A DNA stretch of 64,000 nt from Candidatus Omnitrophota bacterium (lineage in GTDB: Bacteria; Omnitrophota; Omnitrophia; Omnitrophales; Omnitrophaceae). Shown here piece after piece: positions 3,594 through 43,562 of the stretch. The stretch spans positions 9,691-73,690 of the forward strand of contig JAKQXH010000044.1 in NCBI GenBank assembly GCA_029561555.1, written 5' to 3'. The translations under genes and the position numbers were made by a program. The notes beneath the pieces are model-generated. The model had not been told where the DNA came from, made no database searches, and worked only from the letters and a program-made list of their open reading frames with translations. Position 1 is the first letter of the stretch. Each line of letters opens with the position of its first letter.

Positions 3594-3628
3594 GGGGCCG
3601 CCCAAAACCGGGCGGTCTTTTTGTTTTT
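3594..3628. terminator. Rho-independent terminator between the convergent genes at 43..3561(+) and lhgO(-).
   Basis: Stem GCCGCCC / GGGCGGT with loop AAAACC, followed by TCTTTTTGTTTTT. Confidence 0.55.
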
Positions 3629-4802: not shown

Positions 4803-5025
4803 AACAAACCTTTCCAGTTGATGGAACCGCATTCCAATCAAATCCGGTTTGAATCCCGGACTTCTTGCCCGTTCGCGAAAACAATTGTATATTAAATTTA
4901 GATTTCCGCAAAAGATTCCGTAATTATATAGGAAGGTTTCGTCGAAGGAATCGAAGATGCATTTTTTGATTTTTTATCGAATGGTTTGACGTGTAAATTG
5001 TTTTTCACGGACACTCTCTCTTAAT

Positions 5026-6510: not shown

Positions 6511-6551
6511 TGTGAATTCGGATTCGTTTCCCGGAAGACGGCAAACTGTTT

Positions 6552-8657: not shown

Positions 8658-8722
8658 GAAAGGATGGACCGGTTTCCGGCTTGAGGGGCAGAAGGCTATG
8701 TCGGGGGTTTCCGGCGGCAAGT

Positions 8723-11080: not shown

Positions 11081-11178
11081 GTTTTTAAATATTTGAGAAG
11101 CCGGGAAGCCTCTCCCCTCCCTTATTCCTCAAGAATACGCGTAATCTTATATTTCATTCAATAGGTTGAATCGGAAAA

Positions 11179-11208
11179 ATCGAGGGTTCCTCAGGGGCAA
11201 CCCTCGAT
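11179..11208 (-). terminator. Intrinsic terminator-like hairpin at the 3' end of the SPASM rSAM gene; the stop codon lies in the loop.
   Basis: Perfect 10-bp inverted repeat ATCGAGGGTT ... AACCCTCGAT. On the minus-strand transcript it is followed by ATTTTTCC. Confidence 0.45.
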
Positions 11209-12360: not shown

Positions 12361-12379
12361 CGGGTCCTCATTTTTAACT

Positions 12380-13834: not shown

Positions 13835-14104
13835 GAATTGCGCGTGATGAAGTGTCTCACCCTCCCCCGGAAAACGTTTGTAAAAATACCTTGATTATAA
13901 AGATAGAAAACCGGTCCCGGCGGTTTTACCGCAGCGTCCTACGATTAGTATAAAATAACTTCGGGAGTTGTTCCAATTAAGAATTCCGGAGGAGAATGGG
14001 GCCCGGTGGAAAGATCGGGAAGGCGGCCGTCTGTGGACGGAAGAGATTTGAGGGATAACGCTTGCGGTAAATACCAAAACGATATTAGAATCTGCTATTA
14101 AAAT

Positions 14105-31736: not shown

Positions 31737-34157
31737 TTAATAATTTACCGGCACGTCCCTGACAAATTTATTGTAACCGGTTTTAGGGCGGAGGTAAATT
31801 CCCGAGAGGAGCCAGAGGATGCCGAAGAGCCAGAAGAGGGAATTGATTTCGAAAAAGGCGTACAGGGCGGATAATACGGGAGAGTGAAACGTAAAATGAA
31901 TAAGATTCGGACCTTTTGAAAGCGGGACGGCCTTGTAAGCGAGGTTGGCTTTGAATACGGTCACGGGTTTACCGTTTACAGTGGCTTTCCAGCGGGGATG
32001 CCAGGTGTCGCTGTAAAGCAGCCAGGCGGATTTCAGGTCCGGCGGCATATTGACGGCGAGATTCAGGCGGTTCGCGTCAAAAAACAGGATCCGGTAAGGT
32101 CCCGTCAGGCGGGCGTTGAGGGAAACCGGTTTTTCGGGAGCCCATTCAATGGTCCCCGGAATATTCTTCGGGCTTCGGCCCGGGCGATGCAGGAACGGGA
32201 TGTCGCCGTTATAGTCGGGACGGTTCATCTGAGCGGATGTCCATAAATCCTGCTCGGCAAAATAAATATCGGGGAAGACATACGCGGTTTCGAAGAATTG
32301 AATCTTGTCTTCCGTCAGCCCCGCTATTTTCCCGGAGGCGGGATGGGACAGCGGGAAATCGAGTTTTTTGAGTTCTTCAAAACCTGCCGGTGGAGTCGAA
32401 GTGTCGCGGAGGGACTGTCCCCAGTAAGTTTTCATGTATGAATCAAGCGGCAGGAGCCAGTGATCGGTCCGGTATGCATTGCCGATTTCATCCTGAAACG
32501 TGAAGGACTGAAGCGAGAAATAAGCCGCGCCATAGGAGACCCGTTTTTGGCAGAAGAAGGTGCGCAATTCGCCGGAATTCGGCGAGGCGATGCGCCGCGT
32601 CGCGTAAGGCATGGGCTGGAAAGCAGTGATTTTGGCTTCTTTTTGGTTAAGAGAGACGGTCCTGAGGCAGGTTTCCGAAAATTTGTATTCGCCCAGGTCC
32701 CAAAGATGGAGAGCCAGGGCTATAAAGAGAATGACCCGGGAATATTTTTTAAATTGAGGAGCCGCGCCCGAAATAACTAAAACGCCTGAAATGATCGCAA
32801 GAATAGCCGCGCTGACTGCCCGGGCGGTTATCACCCTGGGCAGGAAGGTCCAGGCGAATTTCGAAAGGCCGTTTGGAACAATAATGGCGAGAAGGACCCT
32901 GAGAGTTTCATGGTTTTTGAGAAGGATGAGGGCGTTGGCCGAAACGGCAAAGAGAACCGCTCCGACAAAGAAAAAGCGGAATTTGGATTTTTTGATTCTG
33001 TCCATAGCGGCGGCATGCGTGAACATCCCGTCCAGTCCCGCGCCCGCCAGGAGACAGAGAAAATATTTCGCGAAAAGAGTAACCAGCGAGAGATGCCGGA
33101 AGAATTTCATTCCGGGCCAGGCGTAATAAAAAAATACGGCCAGCGGCGTGCCCATGGCAAAGAGAGAGATTAAAACCGCCGCGAGGAGGAAATGGGCGTT
33201 TTTCCTGCGAAGCGTGAATAGTCCCAGCAGGGCGAGTGAGATCCCGAGAATTCCGATGTAGAGATTGTAGTCGACGCAGGGGGAAATTCTCAGAAACGAT
33301 TCCATCCAGCAGCCGGGGTTGAGCGTTCCTCCGTATTCGAGGAAATACTTTAAGGGAACGGTTCCGTCGGGATTTCGTCCGAGATAATATTTGGTCAGGA
33401 GGCCGGTTTCGGTCCGGAGCAAGAGCAGGACGGCGAACAATGAAAATAAAACAGCGGCAATAGCGGCAACGGAGGCCATGCTGAATTTAAGAGAAAAGAT
33501 CTTTTTGCGAATCTCACGGGGATTGCAAACGGTATAGGAGGAGAAATAGATAGCGATTACCAACGATAGGACGGGCGGATAGTAGGGTAGATTTGCGAGC
33601 ATTTGAACCGCAAATAAATTTCCCGCAAGAGCCAGATATCTCCATTGTCCCTGTTCGAGAAATCGATGGAGGAGGTCGAGCATGAGAGGCATTGCGTAGT
33701 AGAAATGAAAATTAAACCAGACCTGTCCCGCCCAAATGCAGGAACCCATGACGGACACGGCGGTGAAAAAAGCGGCAGCCGGCGAAAGGAATCTTCTCGC
33801 AAAGAGCCATGTTCCAACCAATAGCAGAAGTTCGTCAAAGAAAATCCCGGCATTGAAAATCTGAATAAAATTAATTCCTTTCAGGAGTGGGGTCGCCAGC
33901 AGCAGGACATTTTGCAGAATTCCGGCTTGAATGGCGTACCACCAGGTCGCGACCGTTCCGTGAGTCATGAAGGGCATCCATTGAGGGATTTCACCGTACA
34001 TGACGGCGTGATTCAGGAAGTAATACTGAAGGGTAAAGTATTCGAATGTGTCATGTCCGTTAGGGATACGGTTTTTAAAGTTCAGGAAAAGAATGAGACT
34101 GAATTCCAGGCAGAGGATTAAAAAGAAAAGAATGCGGTCGAGCCGGGCTGTTTTCAA
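31737..34157 (-). CDS. YfhO-family-like polytopic membrane protein (GT-C-like), paralog D.
   Basis: 806 aa. Many TM helices. C-terminal domain ending in WLLYSDTWHPRWKATVNGKPVTVFKANLAYKAVPLSKGPNLIHFTF plus a terminal TM helix. TTG start overlapping the stop of the upstream B12-rSAM (TTGA). Confidence 0.6.
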   Translation of the reverse strand: MKTARLDRILFFLILCLEFSLILFLNFKNRIPNGHDTFEYFTLQYYFLNHAVMYGEIPQWMPFMTHGTVATWWYAIQAGILQNVLLLATPLLKGINFIQIFNAGIFFDELLLLVGTWLFARRFLSPAAAFFTAVSVMGSCIWAGQVWFNFHFYYAMPLMLDLLHRFLEQGQWRYLALAGNLFAVQMLANLPYYPPVLSLVIAIYFSSYTVCNPREIRKKIFSLKFSMASVAAIAAVLFSLFAVLLLLRTETGLLTKYYLGRNPDGTVPLKYFLEYGGTLNPGCWMESFLRISPCVDYNLYIGILGISLALLGLFTLRRKNAHFLLAAVLISLFAMGTPLAVFFYYAWPGMKFFRHLSLVTLFAKYFLCLLAGAGLDGMFTHAAAMDRIKKSKFRFFFVGAVLFAVSANALILLKNHETLRVLLAIIVPNGLSKFAWTFLPRVITARAVSAAILAIISGVLVISGAAPQFKKYSRVILFIALALHLWDLGEYKFSETCLRTVSLNQKEAKITAFQPMPYATRRIASPNSGELRTFFCQKRVSYGAAYFSLQSFTFQDEIGNAYRTDHWLLPLDSYMKTYWGQSLRDTSTPPAGFEELKKLDFPLSHPASGKIAGLTEDKIQFFETAYVFPDIYFAEQDLWTSAQMNRPDYNGDIPFLHRPGRSPKNIPGTIEWAPEKPVSLNARLTGPYRILFFDANRLNLAVNMPPDLKSAWLLYSDTWHPRWKATVNGKPVTVFKANLAYKAVPLSKGPNLIHFTFHSPVLSALYAFFEINSLFWLFGILWLLSGIYLRPKTGYNKFVRDVPVNY

Positions 34158-35662
34158 GCGAATTTCCTCGTCAGGGTATGGGATGCCATTTCGCGAATGT
34201 GGGTTTCCGTTTCAGGGCCGAATTTTCTCCGGATCATCTCGAGGTATTCCGGGTTTTTGAAATAAGTCTGGAATGCCCGGTCGCGGAAGCGGACGACTTC
34301 AGCGCTTGAAAGATATTTCGTCGGAAGAGGCAGCATGTCTTCCGAATGCTGGGAGTATCCGCCCCAGGTTTTGGGAAGAGGCCAGCCTTCTTTCAGCGCT
34401 TGCCGGTACAGATCGGAGCCCGGATAGGCCATGGTGCAGTAAAAATTGGCGAATTCACAGTTTAATTCCGTTGCCAGGTCGAGCGTTTCCTGCATGGATC
34501 GGAGATCGTCTTCCGGCAGGCCGAAAATATAGTTTCCGATGACGTGAATTCCGGTCGCGTTTACTTCCCGCATGGCCTTGAAAATATCTTCCTGGACAAA
34601 TCCTTTTTGAACGTCGTCCCGCACCCGCGAACTGCCGGCTTCGATTCCGAACGCAAGCCAGTTCATGCCCGCGCGCTTCATTTTTTCGCACAATCCCTTC
34701 CGGAGCGTGTCGACGCGGGCGTACGCCCAAAGATTGAGATCGTATCCCCGTCCGATGATCAGGTCGCAAATCCCTTCGACATGCTTTTCGTTCAGCACAA
34801 ACATTTCATCGGCGATTTTGATGTTTCGGACGCCGTATCGGGAAACGAGAAGATCGATTTGCGTGATGACCCATTGCGGGCTCCAGTAACGGTAGGTGTT
34901 GACGTCCTCCCGGTTTCCGGAAAGCTTTTCTCCGCTTTTGAAAGGCGCGTGAATGCAGCAGAAACTGCAGCGGTAGGGACATCCCAACGTGGTGTAAAGG
35001 GCCGCGTAGGGTTCGCGTTTCAGATGACCGAAGCAATGCCAGTTGTGGGCGCGGTATCGGTTCATGGGGAGAAGGTCCCAAGCCATTGCCGGGATGCCTT
35101 CGTCCAAATTTTTTACGAGCGGCGCCGGGGGATTTGAGTCAATCACGCCGTTGTTGCGGTACCACAATCCCCGTACTTTACCGAGATCACCGGGACGGTC
35201 GGATTTGAGCGCTTCGATGAGATCCGTCAGTGTGTACAGGCATTCCCCGTCACAGACAAAATCCGCGTTTTCATCCCGAAGCGTTCTCTCGGGCAGCGCG
35301 GCGACGTGCCCGCCGGCGAGCAGAATTTTCATCTCCGGCGTTCTTTGTTTGATTGCCGAACAGGCGGCCGAGGCAGCCGGCATATTTTGAGTGGAAGCGG
35401 AAGGCTGATGACCGTAGACAATGACAGCGGCAAGCAGAGGATTGATTTCGGAGACCCGCCGGGCTGTTTCATCGGGGCCGAGCCCTTCGGCGTTTGCGTC
35501 TAGGATTTCGATTGAAAACCCCTTGTTTCGGGCAAATCCCGCCATGATCCCGATCCATACGGGGGGTTCTATGGCGGCGAGACTTCTTCCAAGGGTTTGA
35601 TAGACCTGTGACCGGTTTCCGGGATTGATCAGCAGGAGGTCCGGTTTTCGGGAAGAGGTCAT
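34154..35662 (-). CDS. Cobalamin-binding (class B) radical SAM protein, paralog 8.
   Basis: LLLINPGN... B12-like N-terminus. TLGCPYRCSFC motif. 502 aa. Confidence 0.8.
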   Translation of the reverse strand: MTSSRKPDLLLINPGNRSQVYQTLGRSLAAIEPPVWIGIMAGFARNKGFSIEILDANAEGLGPDETARRVSEINPLLAAVIVYGHQPSASTQNMPAASAACSAIKQRTPEMKILLAGGHVAALPERTLRDENADFVCDGECLYTLTDLIEALKSDRPGDLGKVRGLWYRNNGVIDSNPPAPLVKNLDEGIPAMAWDLLPMNRYRAHNWHCFGHLKREPYAALYTTLGCPYRCSFCCIHAPFKSGEKLSGNREDVNTYRYWSPQWVITQIDLLVSRYGVRNIKIADEMFVLNEKHVEGICDLIIGRGYDLNLWAYARVDTLRKGLCEKMKRAGMNWLAFGIEAGSSRVRDDVQKGFVQEDIFKAMREVNATGIHVIGNYIFGLPEDDLRSMQETLDLATELNCEFANFYCTMAYPGSDLYRQALKEGWPLPKTWGGYSQHSEDMLPLPTKYLSSAEVVRFRDRAFQTYFKNPEYLEMIRRKFGPETETHIREMASHTLTRKFA

Positions 35663-35666
35663 GGGC

Positions 35667-36383
35667 TTATTCCGGGGAGGAAGTTTTCCATTGGCTGTAG
35701 ATTTTCTGGAATTCCTTCAACCGTTCCGGCGTGCCGATATCGTAGAGTTTTTCCGGATTGACGTAGGCGTAAAATTCGTCCGGGCTGAGAGAAGGGAAAA
35801 GGTCTTTTTCGAAAGAAAAAGACCTTCCGGACGGGATTTGCTCCAATATCCGCCGGGTGAAAACATAAATACCCGCGTTCAAATAATTTCCCGGTTCTTT
35901 TTCGCAAAAGGAAAGGATCTGTCTGTCGAGGCCGATCTTGATGCTGCCTGCGTCGGTTCTCGAGCGGTCATCCGGCGTGACCACGGCGGTTGCCAGCACT
36001 TTGTTCTGTTCATGAAACTCCAGAAGGGAGTGATAATCGACCGGGCAGAACGAGTCTCCGTTTAGAACGAGGAAAAAAGGGTTTTTTAGAAAGGGTTCGC
36101 AATTTTTAACGGCTCCCGCGGTTCCGAGGGCTGTTTTCTCCCGGGAAAAATGCAAAGAGAGGCCTTTCCGCTTTTGAAAATATTGCTCAATGATTTCTCC
36201 CTTGTAGCCGGTCGCGAGGATGAATTTTTCGAAGCCGTAGGGGGCGATGCTGTTGATCAGAATTTCAAGGAACGGACTTTGCCCGATCGTGACCATGGGC
36301 TTCGGTATCTTGTCGGTGACGGGTTTGAGACGCTTCCCGATGCCTCCGCACAAGATAATAAGATCAACGTCTTGGGGCTCCAT
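35667..36383 (-). CDS. hddC: Sugar-1-phosphate nucleotidyltransferase, heptose-1-phosphate guanylyltransferase (HddC)-like.
   Basis: ILCGGIGKRLKP (GGxGxRL nucleotidyltransferase signature). 238 aa, short single-domain form. Immediately upstream of a GHMP kinase. Confidence 0.55.
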   Translation of the reverse strand: MEPQDVDLIILCGGIGKRLKPVTDKIPKPMVTIGQSPFLEILINSIAPYGFEKFILATGYKGEIIEQYFQKRKGLSLHFSREKTALGTAGAVKNCEPFLKNPFFLVLNGDSFCPVDYHSLLEFHEQNKVLATAVVTPDDRSRTDAGSIKIGLDRQILSFCEKEPGNYLNAGIYVFTRRILEQIPSGRSFSFEKDLFPSLSPDEFYAYVNPEKLYDIGTPERLKEFQKIYSQWKTSSPE

Positions 36384-36391
36384 GCCGGTTG

Positions 36392-37417
36392 TCAGAAAGT
36401 CCTTTCGCGCAGCAGACGGTCCGTTTTTCGCCGGTTGGGACGGTAAAAAACGATTTGGGAGCCGTTGCTTTCAAGCCGGAAGGGAACCGCAATGAGTTTT
36501 TTGAGCTTCTCGCGGATTTGTTTGTGGTTGTCCGGTTTTGCGAAAAAGAGAATAAATCCTCCTCCCCCGGCGCCGATCAATTTTCCTCCGATGGCGCCCG
36601 CATTGAGGCCTGCTTCGTAGATTTGATCGATTTCGGGAGTCGTCACCCCTTCGGCGAGGCTCCTTTTGAGCATCCAGGATTCATGGAGGAGTTTTCCGAA
36701 ATCCGAAAGATCGTTTCCTCCTCCTAAAATTCCCAGCCCCCGCTCGACCATCTGCCGCATGGAAGCAAGGTCTTCGTTTTTCTTTTCGATGTTTTCGATT
36801 TTTTTCTTGGCGATTTCGGATGCGGTGCGGGAGAACCCCGTGAAAAAGAGCATCAGATGATTTTGAAAATCCTCGAGACGCTCACCGTTCAGGATAACCG
36901 GCTCGACGGTAAAGGTTCCGTCCGGTTTGAAGTTGATTTTGTTCAAGCCTCCGAAGGCCGCCGCGACCTGATCCTGCGATCCGACATTTTCCTTCAGGAC
37001 ATCTCGCTCGATATGAATGGCGTCCAGCGCCAGCTGTTTTTTTGTGGGCATGATTTCCTTGAGCCCATACAGGGCGTGCAGGAGTCCGACGCTGAAAGAG
37101 GAACTGGATCCGGTACCGGTCCTGGCCGGAAGATCGCCGTCATGATGGATTTCAACGCCTTCTTCGATCCCCATGAATTTGAGCGCTTCCCGGACGGCCG
37201 GGTGCTGAATTTCATCCCTGGATTTCACCAGTTCTACTTTGGAATACACGATGCGGCTTTTGTGCTCAAAAAAGGGAGGCAGAAAACGGCACGAAAGATA
37301 GCAGTATTTATCGATGGTCGTCGAGAGGACGCACCCTCCGTGTTTTTCGTACCACGCGGGGTAGTCCGTCCCCCCGCCAAAAAAAGAAATTCGGTAAGGC
37401 GTGCGGCAGATAATCAT
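36392..37417 (-). CDS. hddA: GHMP-family sugar kinase, D-glycero-D-manno-heptose 7-phosphate kinase (HddA)-like.
   Basis: N-terminal RTPYRISFFGGGTDYP motif characteristic of HddA-type GHMP kinases. GHMP ATP-binding region GAGGGGF. 341 aa. Confidence 0.55.
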   Translation of the reverse strand: MIICRTPYRISFFGGGTDYPAWYEKHGGCVLSTTIDKYCYLSCRFLPPFFEHKSRIVYSKVELVKSRDEIQHPAVREALKFMGIEEGVEIHHDGDLPARTGTGSSSSFSVGLLHALYGLKEIMPTKKQLALDAIHIERDVLKENVGSQDQVAAAFGGLNKINFKPDGTFTVEPVILNGERLEDFQNHLMLFFTGFSRTASEIAKKKIENIEKKNEDLASMRQMVERGLGILGGGNDLSDFGKLLHESWMLKRSLAEGVTTPEIDQIYEAGLNAGAIGGKLIGAGGGGFILFFAKPDNHKQIREKLKKLIAVPFRLESNGSQIVFYRPNRRKTDRLLRERTF

Positions 37418-37435: not shown

Positions 37436-38365
37436 TTAAAGTCCGGTCCCGCAGAAGCTATTGTGATTTTCAAGAAACCATTCTACGGTTTCTTCCAGCC
37501 CCTTTTCAAGCTTTGTGAATTTAAAACCCGGAAAGCGTTTTGGGAATAGGTTGCTTTTCAGGACTCTGACTCTCTGGCCTTCGGGTTTGCTTTTATCAAA
37601 ACGGATTTTTCCTTTGAATTTCATGGCTCCGGCGATTATTCCGGCAAGATCTCTGATTTTGATTCCGGAGTCCGGCGCCAGGATAACCGTGTCCGGGCTT
37701 TCGATGGATTGACCGGTTTTCAGGATCAACCGCGCGACATCGCCCGAGAAAACAAATTGCCGTACGGCCTCTCCGCTTCCCCAAACCACCAAGGTTTTTC
37801 CGCTTTGTTTGGCGTGAAAACATTTATGGATTAACGCGCTCAGGACGTGGCTATTTTCCAAATCCCAGTGGTCATGCGGCCCGTACATCGTGACGGGCGT
37901 GACGGTCGTGAAGCGGCAACCGTGCTGTTCCCAGAGCAAACGGGTCTGGATGTCCAGCATCCGTTTCGCGCAGCCGTATCCCAGATTCCCGGGGAACGGC
38001 AGGCCGGAATGGAGATCGGTTTCCCGGGTCGGACGCCCGGAGTAAAAAGGGAACGCGCAACTTGAAAGAAGGGACACCAAGCCTTTGACTTTGTGCTTTT
38101 GGGCGGAGGCGAGAACATTGGTGTTGATTTGAATGTTGTCCGCGAAAAAATCCGCGTTCCTTTCGGCGTTGATTTTGACTCCGCCGACTTTTGCCGCAAG
38201 ATGCAGGACCCGGTCCGGCTTTTTATCGCCAAAGATGCGGTCAGTCTGTTTGGCGTCCCGAAGGTCTCCGTTTTGACTCGTCAGAAACGTCGCGCCCGGA
38301 ACAATTTTCCGTACCGCGTGCCCCAGGAGTCCGCTCCCTCCGGTTACGAGGATTTTTTCCTGCAT
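37436..38365 (-). CDS. GDP-L-fucose synthase-like NDP-sugar 3,5-epimerase/4-reductase (Fcl/ColC family).
   Basis: ILVTGGSGLLG...LAAKVGG...LLSSCAFP...YGCAK pattern parallels Fcl (LAAKVGG / GSSCIYP / YxxxK). Start chosen at MQEKILVTGG (38365); the ORF-track extension to 38725 is non-coding-like. Confidence 0.6.
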   Translation of the reverse strand: MQEKILVTGGSGLLGHAVRKIVPGATFLTSQNGDLRDAKQTDRIFGDKKPDRVLHLAAKVGGVKINAERNADFFADNIQINTNVLASAQKHKVKGLVSLLSSCAFPFYSGRPTRETDLHSGLPFPGNLGYGCAKRMLDIQTRLLWEQHGCRFTTVTPVTMYGPHDHWDLENSHVLSALIHKCFHAKQSGKTLVVWGSGEAVRQFVFSGDVARLILKTGQSIESPDTVILAPDSGIKIRDLAGIIAGAMKFKGKIRFDKSKPEGQRVRVLKSNLFPKRFPGFKFTKLEKGLEETVEWFLENHNSFCGTGL

Positions 38366-39528
38366 GAAGCCTCCAGTACGATTTTTGAGATGAAATCCAC
38401 CCCTTGGGCGTCGAGGGCGGGATTGTTGGGAAGAAAGATGCCGCATTGATAAAGCTGATCCGCAACGGGGAAATCGGGCTTTCCGTAGCGGTTGAACCAG
38501 AACGGGTGGCGTCCGAGATTGCCGGCCGTGAAAAGACGCGTTTCGATTCCGTTTTTGGTCAATGCGGCGGCCAGGGAGTGACGTTCGACCGAATTTTTGG
38601 CCAGCATGCAGAAGGAAATGCTGGAGAGCGTGGCATCCGGGTCTTTGCATTGCTGAATGCGAAATCTTTCTCCCAGATGCTTTTGATAACGCAAATGATT
38701 GGCGTGGCGCCTGGAAATCATCCATTCGAGTTTCTCAAGCTGCCGGAGTCCAAGGAAAGCATTCAGGTCCGTCGATCTTAAGTTGAGGCCGGGTTCGTAA
38801 AAGACGAAAGGCTTGTGATCGTCGTTCACGCGGTATTTTTTGACCAGTTTCTGATGGGAGACCGGATCCAGGTCTTTGCTCCAGCCGTGGCTTCTGAGCA
38901 TCAGGAGAAGATCCCGGAAGAGGGGATTGTCCGTGGAAACCATTCCGCCTTCGATTGTGGACATCTGATGCCCGAAATAGAAAGAGAAGCTGGACATGTC
39001 GCCGAAGGTGCCGATTTTTCTTCCGAAAAAGGTGGACCCGATGGAGGCACAGGCGTCTTCAAGCAGGATGAATCTGTATTTTTTCTTGAGTGCCATCACG
39101 GCGTTCATTTTATGCGGGATGCCGAGCACCTGGACCATTGTGACGGCCGAGGGCTCATGTTTTTTAAGGAGTTTTTCGAGATGATCCAGATTTAACCCGA
39201 ATGTGTCCGGATCGGATTCGCAGAGAATCGGCTCGAAACCGAATTGAATGGCCGGCGCAATCGTGGTTACCCATCCGGTGGCCGGGACGATTACTTTTTT
39301 GTTCTTCAGTTTTCCGGAAAGGAGAAGGGCATAATACATCAGCAGGTTGGCCGAAGATCCCGAATTGCAGAACGCGGAAAACTTCCGTCCGATCCATCGG
39401 CTCCATTGATTTTCAAAGAGAACGTTCAACTTGTCCTTGGTCAGTCGGGGAGTCCCTTTCAGCCATTCGATCAGGCGGTCAATGTCTTTTTGGTCGATGG
39501 TGTCTTCCGCGAGATGAAATCGAAGCAT
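38344..39528 (-). CDS. DegT/DnrJ/EryC1/StrS-family PLP/PMP-dependent enzyme with His at the canonical lysine position (ColD/E1-like sugar 3-dehydratase candidate).
   Basis: SGSSANLL...DACASIG...SFSFYFGHQMSTIEGG aligns with the SFHxxKxxxxxEGG aminotransferase motif, with H replacing K. Start chosen at MLRFHLAED (39528). Confidence 0.6.
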   Translation of the reverse strand: MLRFHLAEDTIDQKDIDRLIEWLKGTPRLTKDKLNVLFENQWSRWIGRKFSAFCNSGSSANLLMYYALLLSGKLKNKKVIVPATGWVTTIAPAIQFGFEPILCESDPDTFGLNLDHLEKLLKKHEPSAVTMVQVLGIPHKMNAVMALKKKYRFILLEDACASIGSTFFGRKIGTFGDMSSFSFYFGHQMSTIEGGMVSTDNPLFRDLLLMLRSHGWSKDLDPVSHQKLVKKYRVNDDHKPFVFYEPGLNLRSTDLNAFLGLRQLEKLEWMISRRHANHLRYQKHLGERFRIQQCKDPDATLSSISFCMLAKNSVERHSLAAALTKNGIETRLFTAGNLGRHPFWFNRYGKPDFPVADQLYQCGIFLPNNPALDAQGVDFISKIVLEASCRKKSS

Positions 39529-39556: not shown

Positions 39557-40591
39557 CTAAAACGGTCCTTTGAATTTTGTCGTGAGCAAAGGGACTTCTT
39601 TCTCCGCGGGAAAGTTCCGGCCCAGCATTTCACACACGGCTTGCGCGATCGTTTTCGCATTGGGATAGAAAATGTTCTCGAGCGGTTTGCTGACCGGGCA
39701 AACGACGGGCGCCATTCCCATCCGCCGGACGGGTGCTTTGAGACTTTTAAACCCTTTTTCCGCGGCAAGGGCGGCGATCTCGGCGCTTGCGCCGCAGGCC
39801 GTCCAGCTCGTATCGATCACAAGCAGGCGCCCCGTTTTTTCGATTGACTTCAAAATAACGCTCTCTTCCAGAGGAACCAGCGTGACCGGATCAATGATTT
39901 CGACGTCGATCCCTTCTCCGGCCAGAAATTCCGCGGCCTTCAAGCTCTCGACGACCATGTAGGAATTCGCGACGATCGTAATGTCTTTCCCCTCACGCCT
40001 GATGTTTGCCTTCTTCAGAGGAATTTCATAATAACCGTCGGGCACTTCGCCCGGGATGTCGTAAAGCAGGCGGTGTTCGATGACGGCGACCGGATTTGGG
40101 TCCGCGATGGCGGCGAGCAGAAGACCTTTCGCATCATAGGCGGTTGTGGGCATGACGACTTTCAGACCGGGGACATGCATGAGAAGCGACTGGGGGCTTT
40201 GCGAGTGCTGGGAACCCTGCCCCCAGCTCCGGCCGATTACGGCGCGGATCACGATCGGGACGCTCATCTGGCCGCCGAACATGTAACGCCATTTGGCGGC
40301 GATGTTGAAGAGTTGGTCCAGCGCGAGATAAAGAAAATCGCAGCGGATATGGATGTGGACGGGTCTCATCCCCGCCAGCGCGGCGCCGATGGCCACGCCG
40401 GTCATCGCGGCTTCCGAAAGCGGGGTGTCGAAAACTCTTTCGCGGCCGAAACGGTCGACCAGGTTCTTAGTGCTGCCGAATACCGCCTTGTGATCGTCGA
40501 CCCCGATTCCCATGATCAAGACGGAAGGATCCCTCTCCATCGCCGCCGTCAGGGCATCTAGGATGGCTTGTCCGTAATTACGCAGACTCAT
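39557..40591 (-). CDS. Thiamine-diphosphate-dependent dehydrogenase E1 beta subunit / transketolase C-terminal-like.
   Basis: Pyrimidine-binding and C-terminal transketolase-like domains (VFDTPLSEAAMTGVAIGAALAG...). ATGA overlap with the E1 alpha gene. Confidence 0.7.
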   Translation of the reverse strand: MSLRNYGQAILDALTAAMERDPSVLIMGIGVDDHKAVFGSTKNLVDRFGRERVFDTPLSEAAMTGVAIGAALAGMRPVHIHIRCDFLYLALDQLFNIAAKWRYMFGGQMSVPIVIRAVIGRSWGQGSQHSQSPQSLLMHVPGLKVVMPTTAYDAKGLLLAAIADPNPVAVIEHRLLYDIPGEVPDGYYEIPLKKANIRREGKDITIVANSYMVVESLKAAEFLAGEGIDVEIIDPVTLVPLEESVILKSIEKTGRLLVIDTSWTACGASAEIAALAAEKGFKSLKAPVRRMGMAPVVCPVSKPLENIFYPNAKTIAQAVCEMLGRNFPAEKEVPLLTTKFKGPF

Positions 40592-41580
40592 TTCGGCTCC
40601 TCGAACAGATCTTCATACAGGCATTCCGGAGCGGGGAAAGGACTTTGTTCGGCGAAAGAAACGGCATCTTCGATCTCTTCCGAGATTTCTTTTTCCCATT
40701 CCGAAAATTGAAGATCGGATATCGAAAAGTGCTTCCGCAGAAATTCTTCCGAACGCGCAAGAGGGTCCCGCTGAATGGCCTGCCGGAGTTTTTCCGGTTC
40801 CCGGTAGGCCTCGGCATGGTCTTTGCCGATTCCCACGTGTTCGTAAATTCGGTAAGTCATGTATTCAAGAAGGACCGGCGCGGGATTTTCTTTTATGCGG
40901 GAAACGGCTTCTTTCATGGTTGAGTAAACTTCGGAAACATTGTTTCCGTCGAAGCGGCAGCCTTGAACGCCCAGGCCTTCCCCGAGGCGGTAGAGTTCTT
41001 TCTGCGTGTGACGGTCTGAGACACGGGAGTGGACGGCGTAGTTGTTGTTTTCGCAGACGTAAATAATCGGAAGCTTCTTGAGGACCGCAAAATTCATGCT
41101 TTCGAAAAACACGCCTTCGTCTACCGCGCCGTCGCCGAAGAAGGCCACCGCAACGCGGTCTTCTTTTTTGATTTTGGCCGCAAGCGCGTCGCCCGTTGCG
41201 ACGGGAATGGTGCTTGCGACGATGGCGGAGCAGCCCATCAGACCGGTTTCCGGTGCGGCCAAATGCATGGAGCCGCCCTTGCCCCGGGAGCAGCCGGTAT
41301 TTTTGGCGTAGAGTTCGGCAAACAACTTTTTAAGGTCACCGCCCCTGCCGATGTAAATGCCGTGTCCCCGGTAGGTGCCGTAGAGGTGGTCGGCGGGACT
41401 GAGCGCGAGGGAGACTCCCGCGGAAACGGCTTCCTGCCCGACGGACAAATGAATCGGGCTTTGGATTTTATCGCTCGGATAAATTTCGGCTACTTTCAGT
41501 TCGGCCAGCCGGATTTTGAGCATGGTCCGGTGAAGCGCGATGCTGATGTTCCGGTCGGGTTTCTGATTTCTAGTCGGCAT
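40588..41580 (-). CDS. Thiamine-diphosphate-dependent dehydrogenase E1 alpha subunit.
   Basis: TPP-binding motif GDGAVDEGVFFESMNFA...ENNNYA (GDG-x-N). Similar to pyruvate/acetoin dehydrogenase E1 alpha. Confidence 0.7.
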   Translation of the reverse strand: MPTRNQKPDRNISIALHRTMLKIRLAELKVAEIYPSDKIQSPIHLSVGQEAVSAGVSLALSPADHLYGTYRGHGIYIGRGGDLKKLFAELYAKNTGCSRGKGGSMHLAAPETGLMGCSAIVASTIPVATGDALAAKIKKEDRVAVAFFGDGAVDEGVFFESMNFAVLKKLPIIYVCENNNYAVHSRVSDRHTQKELYRLGEGLGVQGCRFDGNNVSEVYSTMKEAVSRIKENPAPVLLEYMTYRIYEHVGIGKDHAEAYREPEKLRQAIQRDPLARSEEFLRKHFSISDLQFSEWEKEISEEIEDAVSFAEQSPFPAPECLYEDLFEEPK

Positions 41581-41633: not shown

Positions 41634-42569
41634 TCAAACGTTCGCGTATTGAGTCCGTTTGATGATGCGGTAGCACTTGAGCAATTCCTGAATGCCGGCA
41701 TCCAGGGAAACATCGGGTCTGAACCCGGATTTTTCGATTTTTTCGTTGCTGACGATATAATTTCTCTGGTCGGGGTCTTTGCCGACTTCGGAGGCGGTGA
41801 TGGCGAAATGGGGGACGTGTTTTTTGATCGCTTCGCAAAGCTGACGCTTCGAAAGATTGCAGTCGCTGAGTCCCACGTTGTAAGTTTCCCCCTTCATTTT
41901 CTCGAAGGAATTCATTCCGTGCAGAAAGGCTTTTGCGACGTCCCGGACGTGGATGTAATTCCGGATGAAATCGGCTTCGAAAAGGACGACGAATCCGTCG
42001 AATACGGCCCGGTACACGAAATCATTCACCAGGAGATCCAGTCGCATCCGGGGACTGACGCCGAATGCCGTCGCAAGCCGGAACGTAATGCTCTCGCCCG
42101 AATCGAGAATCATTTTCTCGGCTTCGACCTTGAGGCGGCCGTATAGCGAAATTGGGTTCAAAGGTGTTTTCTCGTCGCAGGCAATACCGGTTTGTCCGAT
42201 GCCGTAACCGCTGTTGGTGGTCGGGTAAATAATTCTCTGATGCCTGCCGCGCATTTTGAGCAATTCTTTGACGGAATCAACGATGACTCCCCGGGCGGTG
42301 CAGGGGTCTTTCGAGCAAAGCGGTGCGCCGGTCAGACAGGCCAGCGGGAAAAGATAATCCGCGTCCTTGACGAGCTTTTCCATCAGCTTTGCGTTGCGGA
42401 CATCCCCGCGGACGACCTGGAACCGGGGATTCGCGCAACAGTCGAGCAGGGAAGCCTGCCGGAACATGAAATTGTCGACGACGGTGACTTCGTGATTTTC
42501 CCGAAGCAGTAAAGGAACGAGGACGGAACCGATATAGCCCGCGCCTCCGGTGACCAGTATTTTTGCCAT
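41634..42569 (-). CDS. NAD-dependent NDP-sugar epimerase/dehydratase (extended SDR; RmlB/GalE-like).
   Basis: MAKILVTGGAGYIGSVLV Rossmann motif. YGRLK (YxxxK) catalytic dyad. Confidence 0.7.
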   Translation of the reverse strand: MAKILVTGGAGYIGSVLVPLLLRENHEVTVVDNFMFRQASLLDCCANPRFQVVRGDVRNAKLMEKLVKDADYLFPLACLTGAPLCSKDPCTARGVIVDSVKELLKMRGRHQRIIYPTTNSGYGIGQTGIACDEKTPLNPISLYGRLKVEAEKMILDSGESITFRLATAFGVSPRMRLDLLVNDFVYRAVFDGFVVLFEADFIRNYIHVRDVAKAFLHGMNSFEKMKGETYNVGLSDCNLSKRQLCEAIKKHVPHFAITASEVGKDPDQRNYIVSNEKIEKSGFRPDVSLDAGIQELLKCYRIIKRTQYANV

Positions 42570-42825: not shown

Positions 42826-42881
42826 TAAATTCAGTGCCAACAAAATAGTTCCCTGAAAAATTGGAAATAATAGGAGGCTCC
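42826..42881. repeat. Direct repeat, copy 2 (~56 bp); encodes the last ~16 codons and stop of the GT2 gene at 42831..43562.
   Basis: Same sequence as copy 1; overlaps the GT2 C-terminus (...GASYYFQFFRELFCWH*). Confidence 0.8.
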
Positions 42882-43562
42882 CCACTTGAATATCTTCAGC
42901 TTCCTCACCCCGCCGATTCTCGGAGGTTCGTCTCCCGGGATTTCACCGATGCGGAGTTTCCGCTTCAGCGCCCGGACCGAAAGCAGGGGTTCCCAGCTGA
43001 CTTTCGTCCGGAAAAGTCTTTCGGCCGTCGAGTAGCCTTCGTCTTTGTTTAATTCAAGATCATAAATCAGGCGGGTTTTATAGGCCCGGTAGATGACCAT
43101 GGCGTCCGTGTAATGTCCCTTGTAAAGGAGATTGATCGTATTCGTGAACAGCCGGTTCCCGAATGCCGTCACCGGGTCGTCGTCTTCGCTTTTGGCCCCT
43201 TCAAGGTAGCGGGACACAATGACCATGTCATAACCTTCCTTCATTTTGGCGATCAGGGGCGGGATGAGTTCGGGGATGGAATTCCCGTCGGGACTGAACG
43301 TGATGACGACATCGCCTTCGATGTAGGGGAGGACTTCGTTATATCCCTGCCGGAATCCCGGTTTTTGCTGAACATAGACAAAATACCCGTTTTCCCTGGC
43401 GTATTCAATGGTCCCGTCGGTGGATCCTCCGTCGAGAATGATAATCTGCTCGCACCATTCTTTCCTGACTTTCGGCATAATTGCTTTCATGCCGTCGATT
43501 TCGTTGAGAGTCGGAACCAGTAATGTTGTTTTCATCCGTATCCAATCGCTTTTGATTAGCAA
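42831..43562 (-). CDS. GT2 glycosyltransferase (dolichyl/polyprenyl-phosphate glycosyltransferase-like, soluble form).
   Basis: LLVPTLNE...ILDGGSTDGT...ITFSPDG motifs of the GT-A fold. 243 aa. First gene of the long minus-strand gene array. Confidence 0.65.
   Translation of the reverse strand: MLIKSDWIRMKTTLLVPTLNEIDGMKAIMPKVRKEWCEQIIILDGGSTDGTIEYARENGYFVYVQQKPGFRQGYNEVLPYIEGDVVITFSPDGNSIPELIPPLIAKMKEGYDMVIVSRYLEGAKSEDDDPVTAFGNRLFTNTINLLYKGHYTDAMVIYRAYKTRLIYDLELNKDEGYSTAERLFRTKVSWEPLLSVRALKRKLRIGEIPGDEPPRIGGVRKLKIFKWGASYYFQFFRELFCWH

What the first reader, a model, noticed from the sequence alone, without database searches (positions are those of the whole stretch)
39557..41580. Split TPP-dependent E1 alpha/beta dehydrogenase pair inside a sugar-nucleotide operon
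E1 alpha (GDG...NN TPP motif) and E1 beta are translationally coupled (ATGA). They sit between the ColD-like dehydratase and an RmlB/GalE-like SDR, with no E2/E3 partners. TPP enzymes in deoxysugar clusters (for example YerE in yersiniose biosynthesis) attach two-carbon branches from pyruvate to 4-keto-3,6-dideoxy sugars. The ColD-like 3-dehydratase combined with a TPP enzyme parallels that logic and predicts a branched-chain, acetyl- or hydroxyethyl-decorated, sugar.
Basis: partly seen in the sequence, partly recalled or inferred. Interest (0 to 1): 0.6.

Follow-up and report, generated by a model that had tools for sequence, protein, structure and literature searches.

The report
Sugar-branching thiamine enzyme pair, heptose operon
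A two-subunit thiamine enzyme that looks like the first component of pyruvate dehydrogenase sits, without its usual partners, inside a widely conserved operon that tailors a GDP-linked seven-carbon sugar, where it most likely adds a two-carbon branch to make an undescribed nine-carbon cell-surface sugar.

Summary
E1 alpha (40588..41580, minus strand) and E1 beta (39557..40591, minus strand) overlap by ATGA and keep all thiamine-diphosphate (ThDP) catalytic residues. No E2, E3 or lipoyl gene lies in the window, in about 10 kb beyond either end, or in 90 related loci.

- The flanking SDR is not RmlB/GalE-like. It is 54% identical to PDB 6vo6, which I recall (unverified) as Campylobacter Cj1427, the GDP-heptose C4-dehydrogenase.
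- With a His-type ColD-like 3-dehydratase, a heptose-type GHMP kinase and a nucleotidyltransferase, the acceptor is probably GDP-3-deoxy-4-keto-heptose, not a 3,6-dideoxyhexose.
- The nearest precedent is the actinomycete E1 alpha/beta pairs AviB1/AviB2, Pau11/12 and EvdU5/EvdS3, not YerE.

The core (E1 alpha, E1 beta, ColD-like, Cj1427-like, kinase) is syntenic in 24-26 of 26 assessable genomes from about six phyla. It also occurs in cultured Solidesulfovibrio magneticus RS-1 (plasmid pDMC1), and in part in Azospirillum. A B12 radical SAM enzyme, a polyprenyl-phosphate-type GT2 and a GT-C often accompany it. The chemistry is inferred, not shown. I rate it a new variant of a known kind, of moderate to high interest, and directly testable.

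The parts
42831..43535 (-). GT2 glycosyltransferase of the polyprenyl-phosphate sugar synthase type (AglJ / dolichyl-P-hexose transferase-like), 234 aa
   Evidence: Pfam Glycos_transf_2, 2.6e-14. The best NCBIfam hits are AglJ and dolichyl-phosphate hexose transferase, below cut-off. The gene start is taken from the JGI call. Homologues at 45% identity or more lie within +/-10 kb of E1 in 15 of 26 loci, and at 57% identity in RS-1.
41634..42569 (-). Extended SDR, Cj1427-like; predicted GDP-heptose C4-dehydrogenase that makes the 4-keto sugar without 4,6-dehydration
   Evidence: PDB 6vo6/6vo8, E 9e-112, 54% identity over 308 residues without gaps, with a shared TNSGYG...YxxxK motif. Present in 25 of 26 assessable loci. 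That 6vo6 is Cj1427 comes from memory. The function of Cj1427 is taken from PMC10680097.
40588..41580 (-). ThDP-dependent E1 alpha subunit (the finding)
   Evidence: E1_dh 7e-68. TIGR03182 306 bits, below the cut-off of 394. GDG...NN and the catalytic His residues are conserved. Clade separate from E2-linked E1 alpha, 100/100.
39557..40591 (-). E1 beta subunit (the finding), translationally coupled to alpha by ATGA
   Evidence: Transket_pyr plus Transketolase_C. NF006667 310.5 bits, below the cut-off of 321. Glu60 is conserved in 91 of 92. The overlap is seen. Adjacent to E1 alpha in 26 of 26 loci.
38344..39528 (-). PMP-dependent sugar 3-dehydratase, ColD-like (DegT family with His187 in place of Lys), 394 aa
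   Evidence: Best PDB matches are ColD 2gms/3gr9 (2e-45), then CDP-sugar 3-dehydrase 3bcx. The FGHQMST motif has His in the window and in all 30 close-clade loci where that residue could be read, as well as in RS-1 and Azospirillum. Present in 24 of 26 loci. A GGAGGG ribosome-binding site precedes the ATG at 39528.
37436..38365 (-). GDP-L-fucose-synthase-like SDR (epimerase/reductase type), 309 aa; proposed ketoreductase and/or epimerase of the pathway
   Evidence: Human GDP-fucose synthase 4b8w, 1e-71. NCBIfam GDPFucSynFcl 193 bits, below the cut-off of 500. Present in only 10 of 26 loci; a different SDR of about 330 aa replaces it in many Elusimicrobiota loci.
36392..37417 (-). GHMP sugar kinase, HddA-like (heptose-7-phosphate kinase type)
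   Evidence: Best PDB matches are heptose kinases 3k85, WcbL 4usk and 4n3o (6e-35 to 2e-29). NCBIfam HddA 136 bits, below the cut-off of 600. Present in 25 of 26 loci at 48-66% identity.
35667..36383 (-). Sugar-1-phosphate nucleotidyltransferase (mannose-1-P / heptose-1-P guanylyltransferase-like)
   Evidence: NTP_transferase 7e-32. ManC-type 148 bits and HddC 125 bits, both below cut-off. In Azospirillum lipoferum the homologue is fused to a GmhB-like HAD-IIIA phosphatase.
34154..35662 (-). B12-binding radical SAM enzyme (class B), function open (C-methylation or another radical step on the sugar)
   Evidence: B12-binding 7e-13 plus Radical_SAM 2e-13, with a CxxxCxxC motif. Homologues at 40-66% identity lie in 13 of 26 close loci, at 61-64% in L042 and L048, at 48% in RS-1 and at 50% in A. 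argentinense.
31737..34157 (-). 806-aa polytopic membrane protein, probable GT-C (YfhO/PMT_2-like) lipid-carrier-dependent glycosyltransferase
   Evidence: Weak YfhO hit, 23.8 bits against a cut-off of 28.5. Other cassettes have PMT_2 proteins at the equivalent place. RS-1 has an annotated phospholipid carrier-dependent glycosyltransferase there. This is the weakest assignment.
3627..4841 (-). L-2-hydroxyglutarate oxidase (LhgO), 37 kb away; a possible accessory that recycles the L-2-hydroxyglutarate made by a Cj1427-type dehydrogenase
   Evidence: NF008726 351 bits, above the cut-off of 299. LhgO lies within 8 kb of the cassette in L016 (360 bits) and L020 (307 bits). lhgO is annotated about 9.4 kb downstream of the E1 genes in RS-1. 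Its membership of the system in the window is inferred.

Best explanation
The two genes encode a stand-alone alpha2beta2 E1-type ThDP enzyme. It has been recruited from 2-oxoacid dehydrogenases to work as a carboligase on a nucleotide sugar.

Proposed pathway:
1. [quoted passage not shown] A GmhB-like phosphatase is encoded in some cassettes and would lie elsewhere in this genome.
2. The Cj1427-like SDR oxidises C4. Its bound NADH is recycled with 2-oxoglutarate, and LhgO regenerates the 2-oxoglutarate.
3. The His-type ColD-like enzyme removes the 3-OH, giving GDP-3-deoxy-4-keto-heptose.
4. E1 alpha/beta decarboxylates pyruvate to hydroxyethylidene-ThDP and adds it to the C4 carbonyl, giving a 4-C-acetyl-3-deoxy-heptose, a C9 branched sugar.
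5. The second SDR reduces or epimerises it, for example to a 1-hydroxyethyl branch, and the B12 radical SAM enzyme adds a further modification.
6. The GT2 loads the sugar onto polyprenyl phosphate, and the GT-C transfers it to a periplasmic acceptor.

Shown here: domain identities, conserved catalytic residues, operon structure, conserved synteny, absence of E2/E3 and a separate clade. Inferred: every chemical step, the donor (pyruvate), the site of attack (C4) and the order of late steps.
For: - E1 identity and intact catalytic residues.
- Below the PDH equivalog cut-offs.
- No E2, E3 or lipoyl gene in the 64-kb window, in about 8-10 kb beyond each end, or in 90 related loci. The same queries find them in three control loci.
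- Glycan-context E1 alpha separates from E2-linked E1 alpha in 100/100 bootstraps.
- In 26 assessable loci of the close clade (Omnitrophota, Elusimicrobiota, Nitrospirota, Acidobacteriota, Binatia, Planctomycetia), E1 beta is present in 26, ColD-like in 24, Cj1427-like in 25 and the GHMP kinase in 25.
- The same cassette occurs with only 40% identical E1 alpha in S. magneticus RS-1 pDMC1. A partial cassette occurs in Azospirillum lipoferum 4B: an NTP-transferase::GmhB-like fusion, the Cj1427-like SDR, E1 alpha, E1 beta and a His-type DegT, with no GHMP kinase detected within +/-12 kb.
- The SDR is 54% identical to 6vo6. Cj1427 plus a PLP C3-dehydratase make GDP-3-deoxy-4-keto-heptose in vitro (PMC10680097).
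- His replaces Lys in every cassette DegT.
- LhgO co-occurs, as do GmhB-like phosphatases.
- E1 alpha/beta pairs are the accepted, genetically supported C2-branching enzymes for NDP-4-keto sugars in the avilamycin and paulomycin pathways (PMC4753412, PMC4802897).
- E. coli PDH E1 alone does carboligation (PMC7696235 abstract).
- In A. argentinense Az39 a split transketolase stands where E1 would be, next to the same SDR, kinase and radical SAM genes. This argues that a ThDP C2-transfer belongs to the pathway.
Against: - The papers read here report no in vitro reconstitution of any E1-type sugar-branching enzyme. As of 2023 EvdU5/EvdS3 was still 'hypothesized'.
- A GDP-fucose-synthase-like 4-reductase in the operon has no obvious substrate if E1 consumes the C4 carbonyl. 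It would have to act on the side-chain ketone or in a branch path.
- The kinase and nucleotidyltransferase score far below the HddA/HddC cut-offs. No GmhA or GmhB was seen in the window.
- The donor could be a 2-oxoacid other than pyruvate, as in ErwE/MyGE.
- That 6vo6 is Cj1427 rests on my memory. The structural papers were not held.
Confidence: 0.55

Rival explanations
1. The pair is a ThDP carboligase on the sugar nucleotide, but with different chemistry. The donor could be another 2-oxoacid, for example the 2-oxoglutarate produced by the ColD-like enzyme, or a longer hydroxy-oxoacid. The attack could be elsewhere, for example a Stetter-type 1,4-addition or chain extension at an oxidised C6/C7. 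In that case the C4 ketone survives and is reduced by the fucose-synthase-like SDR.
For: A 4-reductase-type SDR is present in the operon. YerE-family enzymes use C4-C8 donors rather than pyruvate (PMC9306805). 2-Oxoglutarate is handled locally, by ColD-like, Cj1427-like and LhgO enzymes. A split transketolase, which donates a different C2 unit, substitutes for E1 in Az39.
Against: The best family matches are to pyruvate-type E1 (TIGR03182, NF006667). All documented E1-type sugar branchings are acetyl transfers from pyruvate to C4. The fucose-synthase-like SDR is dispensable, being present in 10 of 26 loci.
Confidence: 0.2
2. It is an ordinary oxidative pyruvate or acetoin dehydrogenase E1 whose E2 and E3 are encoded elsewhere. 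It would lie in the operon by chance, or supply acetyl-CoA for O-acetylation.
For: 35-40% identity to bona fide E1 alpha. E1 beta scores only 10 bits under the PDH subfamily cut-off. The rest of the genome cannot be inspected.
Against: Synteny with sugar genes is conserved across about six phyla, two cultured genera and 26 of 26 loci, at E1 identities down to 40%. No E2, E3 or lipoyl gene is near any of 90 loci, although the control loci have them adjacent. The clade is separate, 100/100. The genes sit tightly packed inside a run of sugar genes: the two E1 genes overlap by 4 nt, and the gaps to both flanking genes are under 55 bp.
Confidence: 0.05
3. The pair works in the cleavage direction, as acetoin-cleaving E1 does. 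It would break a C-C bond next to the sugar's ketone to shorten or open the sugar rather than branch it.
For: Acetoin dehydrogenase E1 (AcoA/AcoB) is a close relative that cleaves an alpha-hydroxyketone (established knowledge). JGI and NCBI annotators label many family members as acetoin dehydrogenase.
Against: After 3-deoxygenation no alpha-hydroxyketone suited to productive cleavage is left. Cleavage at C4-C5 would destroy the pyranose that the downstream GT2 and GT-C need. There is no precedent in sugar-nucleotide pathways.
Confidence: 0.05

Closest known systems
AviB1/AviB2 (avilamycin eurekanate), Pau11/Pau12 = Plm8/Plm9 (paulomycose), EvdU5/EvdS3 (everninomicin): E1 alpha/beta pairs of actinomycete deoxysugar pathways
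   Same: A split PDH-like E1 alpha plus beta without E2/E3, inside an NDP-sugar gene set, next to enzymes that generate an NDP-4-keto sugar. The proposed job is to transfer a C2 (acetyl) unit from pyruvate to C4 (PMC4753412, PMC4802897, PMC10338323).
   Different: Those are in Gram-positive secondary-metabolite clusters and act on dTDP/UDP 6-deoxyhexoses or a 4-keto-pentose. Here the context is a cell-envelope glycan cassette of Gram-negative and uncultured phyla. The probable acceptor is a GDP-3-deoxy-4-keto-heptose, and the cassette adds a B12 radical SAM enzyme and lipid-carrier glycosyltransferases. Sequence orthology was not tested.
YerE (yersiniose A) and its relatives ErwE/MyGE
   Same: ThDP-dependent addition of an acyl-anion equivalent to C4 of a 3-deoxy-4-keto nucleotide sugar made by a PMP 3-dehydratase, followed by ketoreduction (YerF), in an LPS pathway (PMC9306805).
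   Different: YerE is a single-chain acetolactate-synthase-type flavoprotein, not an E1 alpha/beta heterotetramer. It acts on a CDP-3,6-dideoxyhexose. PMC4753412 states that Gram-negatives use YerE 'unlike' the E1 pairs of Gram-positives. This cassette is a counter-example if the prediction holds.
Pyruvate / acetoin dehydrogenase E1 alpha-beta (for example human PDHA1/PDHB 3exf; Brevibacillus E1ab-E2-E3)
   Same: Same fold and domain order, same ThDP motif and catalytic His and Glu residues. 35-40% identity.
   Different: Below the curated equivalog cut-offs, no E2/E3, a separate clade, and constant linkage to sugar-nucleotide enzymes.
Campylobacter jejuni capsular GDP-heptose modification pathway (HddA, HddC, Cj1427, HS:5 C3-dehydratase, fucose-synthase-like C4-reductases)
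   Same: Homologues of every enzyme type are in the operon. The combination Cj1427 plus C3-dehydratase, which gives GDP-D-glycero-3-deoxy-4-keto-heptose, was made only artificially in vitro (PMC10680097).
   Different: C. jejuni has no ThDP enzyme and no B12 radical SAM enzyme in this pathway. Its heptoses are not C-branched and are polymerised in the cytoplasm rather than passed to a polyprenyl-P/GT-C system.
Three-component periplasmic glycosylation systems (ArnC/ArnT; GtrB- or CsbB-type GT2 plus YfhO/PMT_2-type GT-C)
   Same: A small polyprenyl-phosphate GT2 plus a large polytopic GT-C are encoded with the sugar-making genes.
   Different: The sugar is different and the acceptor is unknown. 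The GT-C assignment in the window rests on a sub-threshold YfhO match and on synteny.

Membership tests
Heterotetrameric (alpha/beta) E1 ThDP enzymes of the 2-oxoacid dehydrogenase superfamily | E1_dh domain in alpha; Pyr (Transket_pyr) plus Transketolase_C domains in beta; genes adjacent | tested here: met
   Pfam 7e-68, 6e-34 and 1e-31. ATGA overlap.
Heterotetrameric (alpha/beta) E1 ThDP enzymes of the 2-oxoacid dehydrogenase superfamily | ThDP/Mg motif GDG-X(25-30)-NN in alpha and the cofactor-activating Glu in beta | tested here: met
   G149-D150-G151...N178-N179, and Glu60 in beta. Conserved in 90-94 of 94 and in 91 of 92 relatives.
Pyruvate/acetoin dehydrogenase complex E1 (functional member of a lipoate-dependent complex) | Reaches the curated equivalog score of PDH E1 alpha and E1 beta | tested here: not met
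   TIGR03182 306 bits against 394. TIGR03181 204 against 411. NF006667 310.5 against 321. NF008854 295 against 454.
Pyruvate/acetoin dehydrogenase complex E1 (functional member of a lipoate-dependent complex) | Cognate E2 (lipoyl plus catalytic domain) and E3 encoded with or near it | tested here: not met
   None in the window, in its flanks, or in 90 related loci. Control loci have them adjacent. The rest of the genome could not be examined.
Pyruvate/acetoin dehydrogenase complex E1 (functional member of a lipoate-dependent complex) | Groups phylogenetically with E2-linked E1 alpha | tested here: not met
   In an NJ tree the split between 32 glycan-context sequences and 5 reference sequences (four E2- or lipoyl-linked, plus Mesorhizobium, where no E2 was seen) has 100/100 bootstraps. 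The reference sample is small.
E1-type sugar C-branching enzymes (AviB1/AviB2 kind) | E1 alpha/beta pair without E2/E3 embedded in a nucleotide-sugar gene cluster, next to an enzyme that makes an NDP-4-keto sugar | tested here: met
   Operon map. Cj1427-like SDR and ColD-like dehydratase flank the pair. Synteny in 24-26 of 26 loci.
E1-type sugar C-branching enzymes (AviB1/AviB2 kind) | Sequence orthology to AviB1/AviB2, Pau11/12 or EvdU5/S3 | not tested
   These sequences could not be obtained with the tools. None appeared among the listed hits.
E1-type sugar C-branching enzymes (AviB1/AviB2 kind) | Product carries a pyruvate-derived C2 branch | not testable with these tools
   Needs an enzyme assay or glycan structure analysis.
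YerE-type ThDP flavoenzymes | Single polypeptide with acetolactate-synthase-type TPP_enzyme_N/M/C domains and FAD | tested here: not met
   The domain architecture is E1 alpha plus E1 beta. There is only a marginal TPP_enzyme_C hit (1.3e-5) over the shared ThDP motif.
Campylobacter-type GDP-heptose modification pathway | Cj1427-type C4-dehydrogenase (no 4,6-dehydration), recycled by 2-oxoglutarate | tested here: met
   54% identity to 6vo6 over 308 aa. TNSGYG instead of the dehydratase acid/base pair. LhgO equivalogs co-occur. That 6vo6 is Cj1427 is from memory.
Campylobacter-type GDP-heptose modification pathway | [quoted passage not shown] | tested here: inconclusive
   The kinase's best PDB matches are heptose kinases, but HddA scores 136 against 600 and HddC 125 against 300. 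GmhB-like phosphatases, near cut-off (172 against 178), occur only in some cassettes (L036, L049 and the A. lipoferum fusion), not in the window.
Campylobacter-type GDP-heptose modification pathway | PMP/PLP 3-dehydratase with His replacing the Schiff-base Lys | tested here: met
   His187. ColD is the best PDB match.

The most novel reading that the evidence does not exclude
The cassette may make a higher-carbon carbocyclic sugar of the caryose type rather than a simple branched one. Caryose is 4,8-cyclo-3,9-dideoxy-nonose, and its biosynthesis is reported as unknown (PMC9092360). Retro-analysis gives a heptose backbone that keeps C6/C7 oxygens (Cj1427-type oxidation), 3-deoxygenation (ColD-like), a C8-C9 unit with a terminal methyl attached to C4 (E1 alpha/beta plus pyruvate), and a C7-C8 ring closure that a radical SAM enzyme could perform. 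Each of these enzyme types is in the operon. If this is true, the E1 pair and the B12 radical SAM enzyme together define the first route to carbocyclic LPS sugars, and that route would be spread across many uncultured phyla.
Probability: 0.1. Interest if true: 0.85.

Novelty: new variant of a known kind. Interest (0 to 1): 0.6.

Why it matters
E1-type ThDP enzymes that branch sugars are known only from a few actinomycete antibiotic clusters, and none had been reconstituted in vitro in the papers read here. The literature states that Gram-negative surface glycans use the unrelated YerE type instead. This cassette would overturn that division.

It predicts an undescribed nine-carbon C-branched 3-deoxy-heptose on the envelopes of Omnitrophota, Elusimicrobiota, Nitrospirota, Acidobacteriota and others. 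It would also give a natural role to GDP-3-deoxy-4-keto-heptose, which so far has only been made artificially.

The complete cassette sits on a 58.7-kb plasmid of the cultivable Solidesulfovibrio magneticus RS-1, and Azospirillum plasmids carry a partial version lacking the kinase. The substrates are accessible through published Campylobacter enzymes. The prediction can therefore be tested directly by enzyme assay and glycan analysis. It also supplies candidate carboligases for chemoenzymatic synthesis of branched sugars.

Tried and rejected
- Bradyrhizose as the product: rejected. Its candidate cluster starts from a dTDP-glucose 4,6-dehydratase and mentions no ThDP enzyme (PMC4743980).
- Reading the operon's radical SAM enzyme as an HpnJ-like carbocycle-forming enzyme because HpnJ is its best NCBIfam hit: rejected as evidence. 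Other B12 radical SAM proteins of the window score higher to HpnJ, and all are far below cut-off.
- Confirming that 6vo6 is Cj1427: the two Biochemistry 2020 papers are not held, a text search for the PDB codes found nothing relevant, and the SDR homologue search listed only metagenome proteins.
- Looking for the cassette in Burkholderia/Trinickia caryophylli: not possible.
- A memory that the Coxiella O-antigen region has E1-like genes could not be checked (searches were uninformative).
- ORF clustering of the loci was spoilt by long antisense ORFs in GC-rich contigs. I used tblastn counts instead.
- The promoter and terminator scan gave nothing above chance.
- The 50%-representative search gave only family size (1774 proteins at E <= 1e-30) and fused alpha-beta forms.
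- A literature search for heptose plus ThDP/E1 found no description of this cassette.


Full report
**1. Observation**

- E1 alpha is 40588..41580 (330 aa; Pfam E1_dh, 7e-68).
- E1 beta is 39557..40591 (344 aa; Transket_pyr 6e-34, Transketolase_C 1e-31).
- The junction is ...GAAATGAGT..., so the beta start overlaps the alpha stop by ATGA.
- The ThDP motif G149-D150-G151...N178-N179 is present. Residues R71, H73, H44 and H248 are invariant, and the motif residues are conserved in 90-94 of the 94 relatives examined.
- The cofactor-activating Glu60 of beta is present in 91 of 92 relatives. The enzyme should therefore be active.
- The window comes from a Candidatus Omnitrophota MAG. Identical contigs occur in several metagenome assemblies (JGI, ENA/NCBI and Logan).

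**2. Operon**

From 43535 down to 31737 the minus strand carries ten tightly packed genes. Most gaps are 4-53 bp or overlaps, with one 260-bp gap after the first gene. In order they are:
- GT2 (42831..43535)
- extended SDR (41634..42569)
- E1 alpha
- E1 beta
- DegT-family protein (38344..39528, preceded by GGAGGG)
- GDP-fucose-synthase-like SDR (37436..38365)
- GHMP kinase (36392..37417)
- nucleotidyltransferase (35667..36383)
- B12-binding radical SAM enzyme (34154..35662)
- 806-aa membrane protein (31737..34157)

A consensus promoter and terminator scan adds nothing above chance.

**3. Not a dehydrogenase complex**

- The pair scores below NCBI's curated cut-offs for PDH E1 alpha (306 against 394) and E1 beta (310.5 against 321).
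- Pfam scans of 36 of the window's large ORFs show no lipoyl, 2-oxoacid_dh or E3 protein. The remaining large ORFs at 19.6-31.7 kb were not scanned. By sequence they are radical SAM and GT2 proteins, and the tblastn below covers them.
- I took genuine E2, E3 and lipoyl-protein sequences from control loci where E1 alpha/beta is followed by them: Brevibacillus E1ab-E2-E3, Streptomyces fungicidicus pdhA-E1b-E2, and Thermus. A tblastn with these found nothing in the window or in any of the 90 glycan-type loci, but did find the controls.
- The contig beyond the window also lacks them, for about 8 kb to the left and 10 kb to the right.
- In a neighbour-joining tree, all E1 alpha sequences from sugar contexts separate from five reference sequences in 100 of 100 bootstraps. 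Four references are E2- or lipoyl-linked (human PDHA1, Thermus, Streptomyces pdhA, Brevibacillus). The fifth is a Mesorhizobium sequence where no E2 was seen.
- Caveats: the reference set is small, and most sugar-context sequences were collected with family-derived patterns. The RS-1 and Azospirillum sequences were found independently by tblastn.

**4. A conserved cassette**

The E1 alpha family has more than 120 metagenome members at 58-87% identity.

Five annotated contigs from unrelated samples show the same neighbours.

A scan of one genome per species returned 80 loci, and I mapped the window's ten proteins onto them. In the close clade (E1 alpha 52-67%; Omnitrophota, Elusimicrobiota, Nitrospirota, Acidobacteriota, Binatia, Planctomycetia), 26 loci have enough flank to judge:

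| Partner gene | Loci with it (of 26) |
|---|---|
| E1 beta | 26 |
| Upstream SDR (Cj1427-like) | 25 |
| GHMP kinase | 25 |
| DegT (ColD-like) | 24 |
| GT2 | 15 |
| Nucleotidyltransferase | 14 |
| B12 radical SAM | 13 |
| Fucose-synthase-like SDR | 10 |

Where the fucose-synthase-like SDR is missing, another SDR of about 330 aa often takes its place.

Cultured carriers exist.
- Solidesulfovibrio magneticus RS-1 plasmid pDMC1 has the full set: GT2, GT2, radical SAM (48% identity), NUDIX, kinase (55%), E1 alpha (40%), E1 beta (54%), 'GDP-L-fucose synthase', DegT, SDR (57%), nucleotidyltransferase, a phospholipid-carrier-dependent glycosyltransferase and lhgO.
- Azospirillum lipoferum 4B plasmid AZO_p6 has a nucleotidyltransferase::GmhB-like fusion, the SDR (61%), E1 alpha (44%), E1 beta (53%) and DegT. 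No GHMP kinase was detected within +/-12 kb there.
- Related E1 alpha proteins are named from A. thermophilum, A. halopraeferens, A. agricola and Niveispirillum lacus.

**5. What the neighbours say about the substrate**

- The upstream SDR is not RmlB/GalE-like in function. Its best solved relative by far is 6vo6/6vo8 (E 9e-112; 54% identity over 308 residues without a gap). The next match is at 1e-23.
- From memory, 6vo6 is Campylobacter jejuni Cj1427. I could not confirm the code, because the papers are not held.
[quoted passage not shown] It keeps NADH tightly bound and is re-oxidised by 2-oxoglutarate, which becomes L-2-hydroxyglutarate (PMC10680097).
- Both proteins have TNSGYG where 4,6-dehydratases carry their acid/base pair (plus established knowledge of SDR dehydratases).
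- Fitting that mechanism, L-2-hydroxyglutarate oxidase equivalogs above the curated cut-off occur in the window (3627..4841; 351 against 299) and within 8 kb of the cassette in L016 (360) and L020 (307). lhgO is annotated about 9.4 kb downstream of the E1 genes in RS-1.
- The DegT protein matches ColD best (2e-45) and has His187 at the Schiff-base lysine position. So do all 30 close-clade homologues where that residue could be read, and those of RS-1 and Azospirillum. This is the signature of PMP-dependent 3-dehydratases.
- The kinase is closest to solved heptose kinases (3k85, WcbL, 4n3o). The nucleotidyltransferase is closest to ManC/HddC-type guanylyltransferases, all below cut-off.
- GmhB-like phosphatases sit in some cassettes: L036 directly upstream of E1 alpha (172 against 178 bits), L049, and the Azospirillum fusion.
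- Raushel's group showed that Cj1427 plus the HS:5 C3-dehydratase make GDP-D-glycero-3-deoxy-4-keto-heptose in vitro, and they describe the resulting 3-deoxy-heptoses as novel. This operon encodes exactly that pair side by side, with the E1 pair between them.

**6. Most likely mechanism**

- The E1 alpha/beta heterotetramer decarboxylates pyruvate to hydroxyethylidene-ThDP. With no lipoyl acceptor available, it adds this acyl-anion equivalent to the C4 carbonyl of GDP-3-deoxy-4-keto-heptose. The product is a 4-C-acetyl tertiary alcohol.
- An SDR then reduces the side-chain ketone, playing a YerF-like role, and/or epimerises.
- The B12 radical SAM enzyme modifies an unactivated carbon.
- The GT2 puts the sugar on polyprenyl phosphate, and the GT-C uses it outside the cytoplasmic membrane.

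Support from established knowledge:
- E1 pairs are the accepted C2-branching enzymes in the avilamycin and paulomycin pathways, where the evidence is genetic.
- E. coli PDH E1 alone performs carboligations.
- YerE does the same chemistry on a CDP-3,6-dideoxy-4-keto sugar.
- In A. argentinense Az39 a split transketolase lies beside the same SDR, kinase and radical SAM trio in place of E1. This suggests that a ThDP C2 transfer is intrinsic to the pathway.

Weak points:
- No step is shown experimentally.
- A fucose-synthase-type 4-reductase seems redundant if C4 is consumed.
- The donor and the regiochemistry are open.
- The heptose assignment rests on sub-threshold kinase and transferase matches plus the 6vo6 similarity.

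**7. Rivals**

- A different donor or site of attack: 0.2.
- An ordinary PDH/acetoin E1 with distant partners: 0.05.
- C-C cleavage: 0.05.
- The most novel reading not excluded is a caryose-type carbocyclic nonose, at about 0.1. Caryose is 4,8-cyclo-3,9-dideoxy-nonose, and its origin is 'currently unknown'. Its skeleton equals a 3-deoxy-heptose carrying a pyruvate-derived C2 unit at C4, closed between C7 and C8. I could not examine the producer's genome.

**8. Comparison and novelty**

- Functionally this is the AviB1/AviB2 kind. Membership by descent is untested.
- It is not a YerE-family member, because the fold is different, and it fails the tests for a PDH-complex E1.
- The new elements are the taxonomic and cellular setting (envelope glycans of Gram-negative and candidate phyla, against the published statement that these use YerE), the probable heptose acceptor, and the fixed association with a Cj1427-type dehydrogenase, a B12 radical SAM enzyme and a lipid-carrier glycosylation pair.
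- I found no paper describing it.
- Verdict: new variant of a known kind; interest 0.6.

Noticed in passing
window 5000-31700: The finding lies at the edge of a glycan island of about 45 kb that is unusually rich in radical SAM enzymes. There are at least eight B12-binding radical SAM genes (5026..6510, 12380..13834, 17066..18514, 20621..22192, 22196..23620, 25790..27307, 34154..35662 and a split one) and four other radical SAM/SPASM genes. Several GT2 genes and very large membrane proteins, YfhO-like or without Pfam hits, lie between them (6552..9038, 14105..17014, 31737..34157).
   Followed up: partly
window 30301-31715: A B12-binding radical SAM gene appears split into two overlapping reading frames. 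One is a 277-aa N-terminal part that includes the CxxxCxxC motif; the C-terminal part is in another frame. The same split is called in two independent JGI contigs. It is therefore a real frameshift or pseudogene, or a two-piece enzyme, rather than a single assembly error.
   Followed up: no
window 3627-4841: An L-2-hydroxyglutarate oxidase equivalog (351 bits against a cut-off of 299). LhgO genes also lie within 8 kb of the cassette in L016 and L020, and about 9.4 kb downstream of the E1 genes in S. magneticus RS-1. This fits recycling of the L-2-hydroxyglutarate made by a Cj1427-type dehydrogenase.
   Followed up: yes
L100 (Azospirillum argentinense Az39 plasmid p5, NZ_CP007798.1) 5273-14158: The B12 radical SAM (50%), Cj1427-like SDR (59%) and GHMP kinase (56%) trio sits next to a split transketolase (N-terminal and C-terminal genes), a 'cobalamin-dependent protein' and a methyltransferase, instead of E1 alpha/beta. 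The downstream region is broken up by IS elements.
   Followed up: partly
L039, L044, L045, L053, L055, L056, L058, L070, L073, L087 (about 12000-13100 in loci with a full 10-kb upstream flank; just downstream of E1 beta in the others): In a more distant E1 sub-clade (42-50% identity; Bathyarchaeia, Methanothrix, Chloroflexota, candidate phyla radiation and others) the gene right after E1 beta is a DegT protein with the normal lysine (FSFYPAKILG). It is a true aminotransferase, usually with an SDR just upstream of E1 alpha. This suggests a second, different E1-dependent sugar pathway, for example amination of an acetyl branch.
   Followed up: partly
L099 (Sinorhizobium fredii CCBAU 25509 pSF25509b) 9466-15957: A nucleotidyltransferase, a Cj1427-like SDR (56%; 59% to 6vo6), a GHMP kinase (45%) and a DegT occur together without any ThDP enzyme. 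This looks like a Campylobacter-style heptose modification set in a rhizobium.
   Followed up: no
one search hit list (for example P0253, P0260, P0265, P0266): Among the 50%-identity representatives related to E1 alpha there are many proteins of about 650-680 aa. In these the E1 alpha match covers only half the protein, so they are probably fused alpha-beta single-chain forms.
   Followed up: no
window 43-3561 and L097 2918-8536: The ORF at the left edge of the window is the C-terminal part of an 1872-aa protein with no Pfam match. It lies next to a LytTR-type two-component system just outside the window.
   Followed up: no
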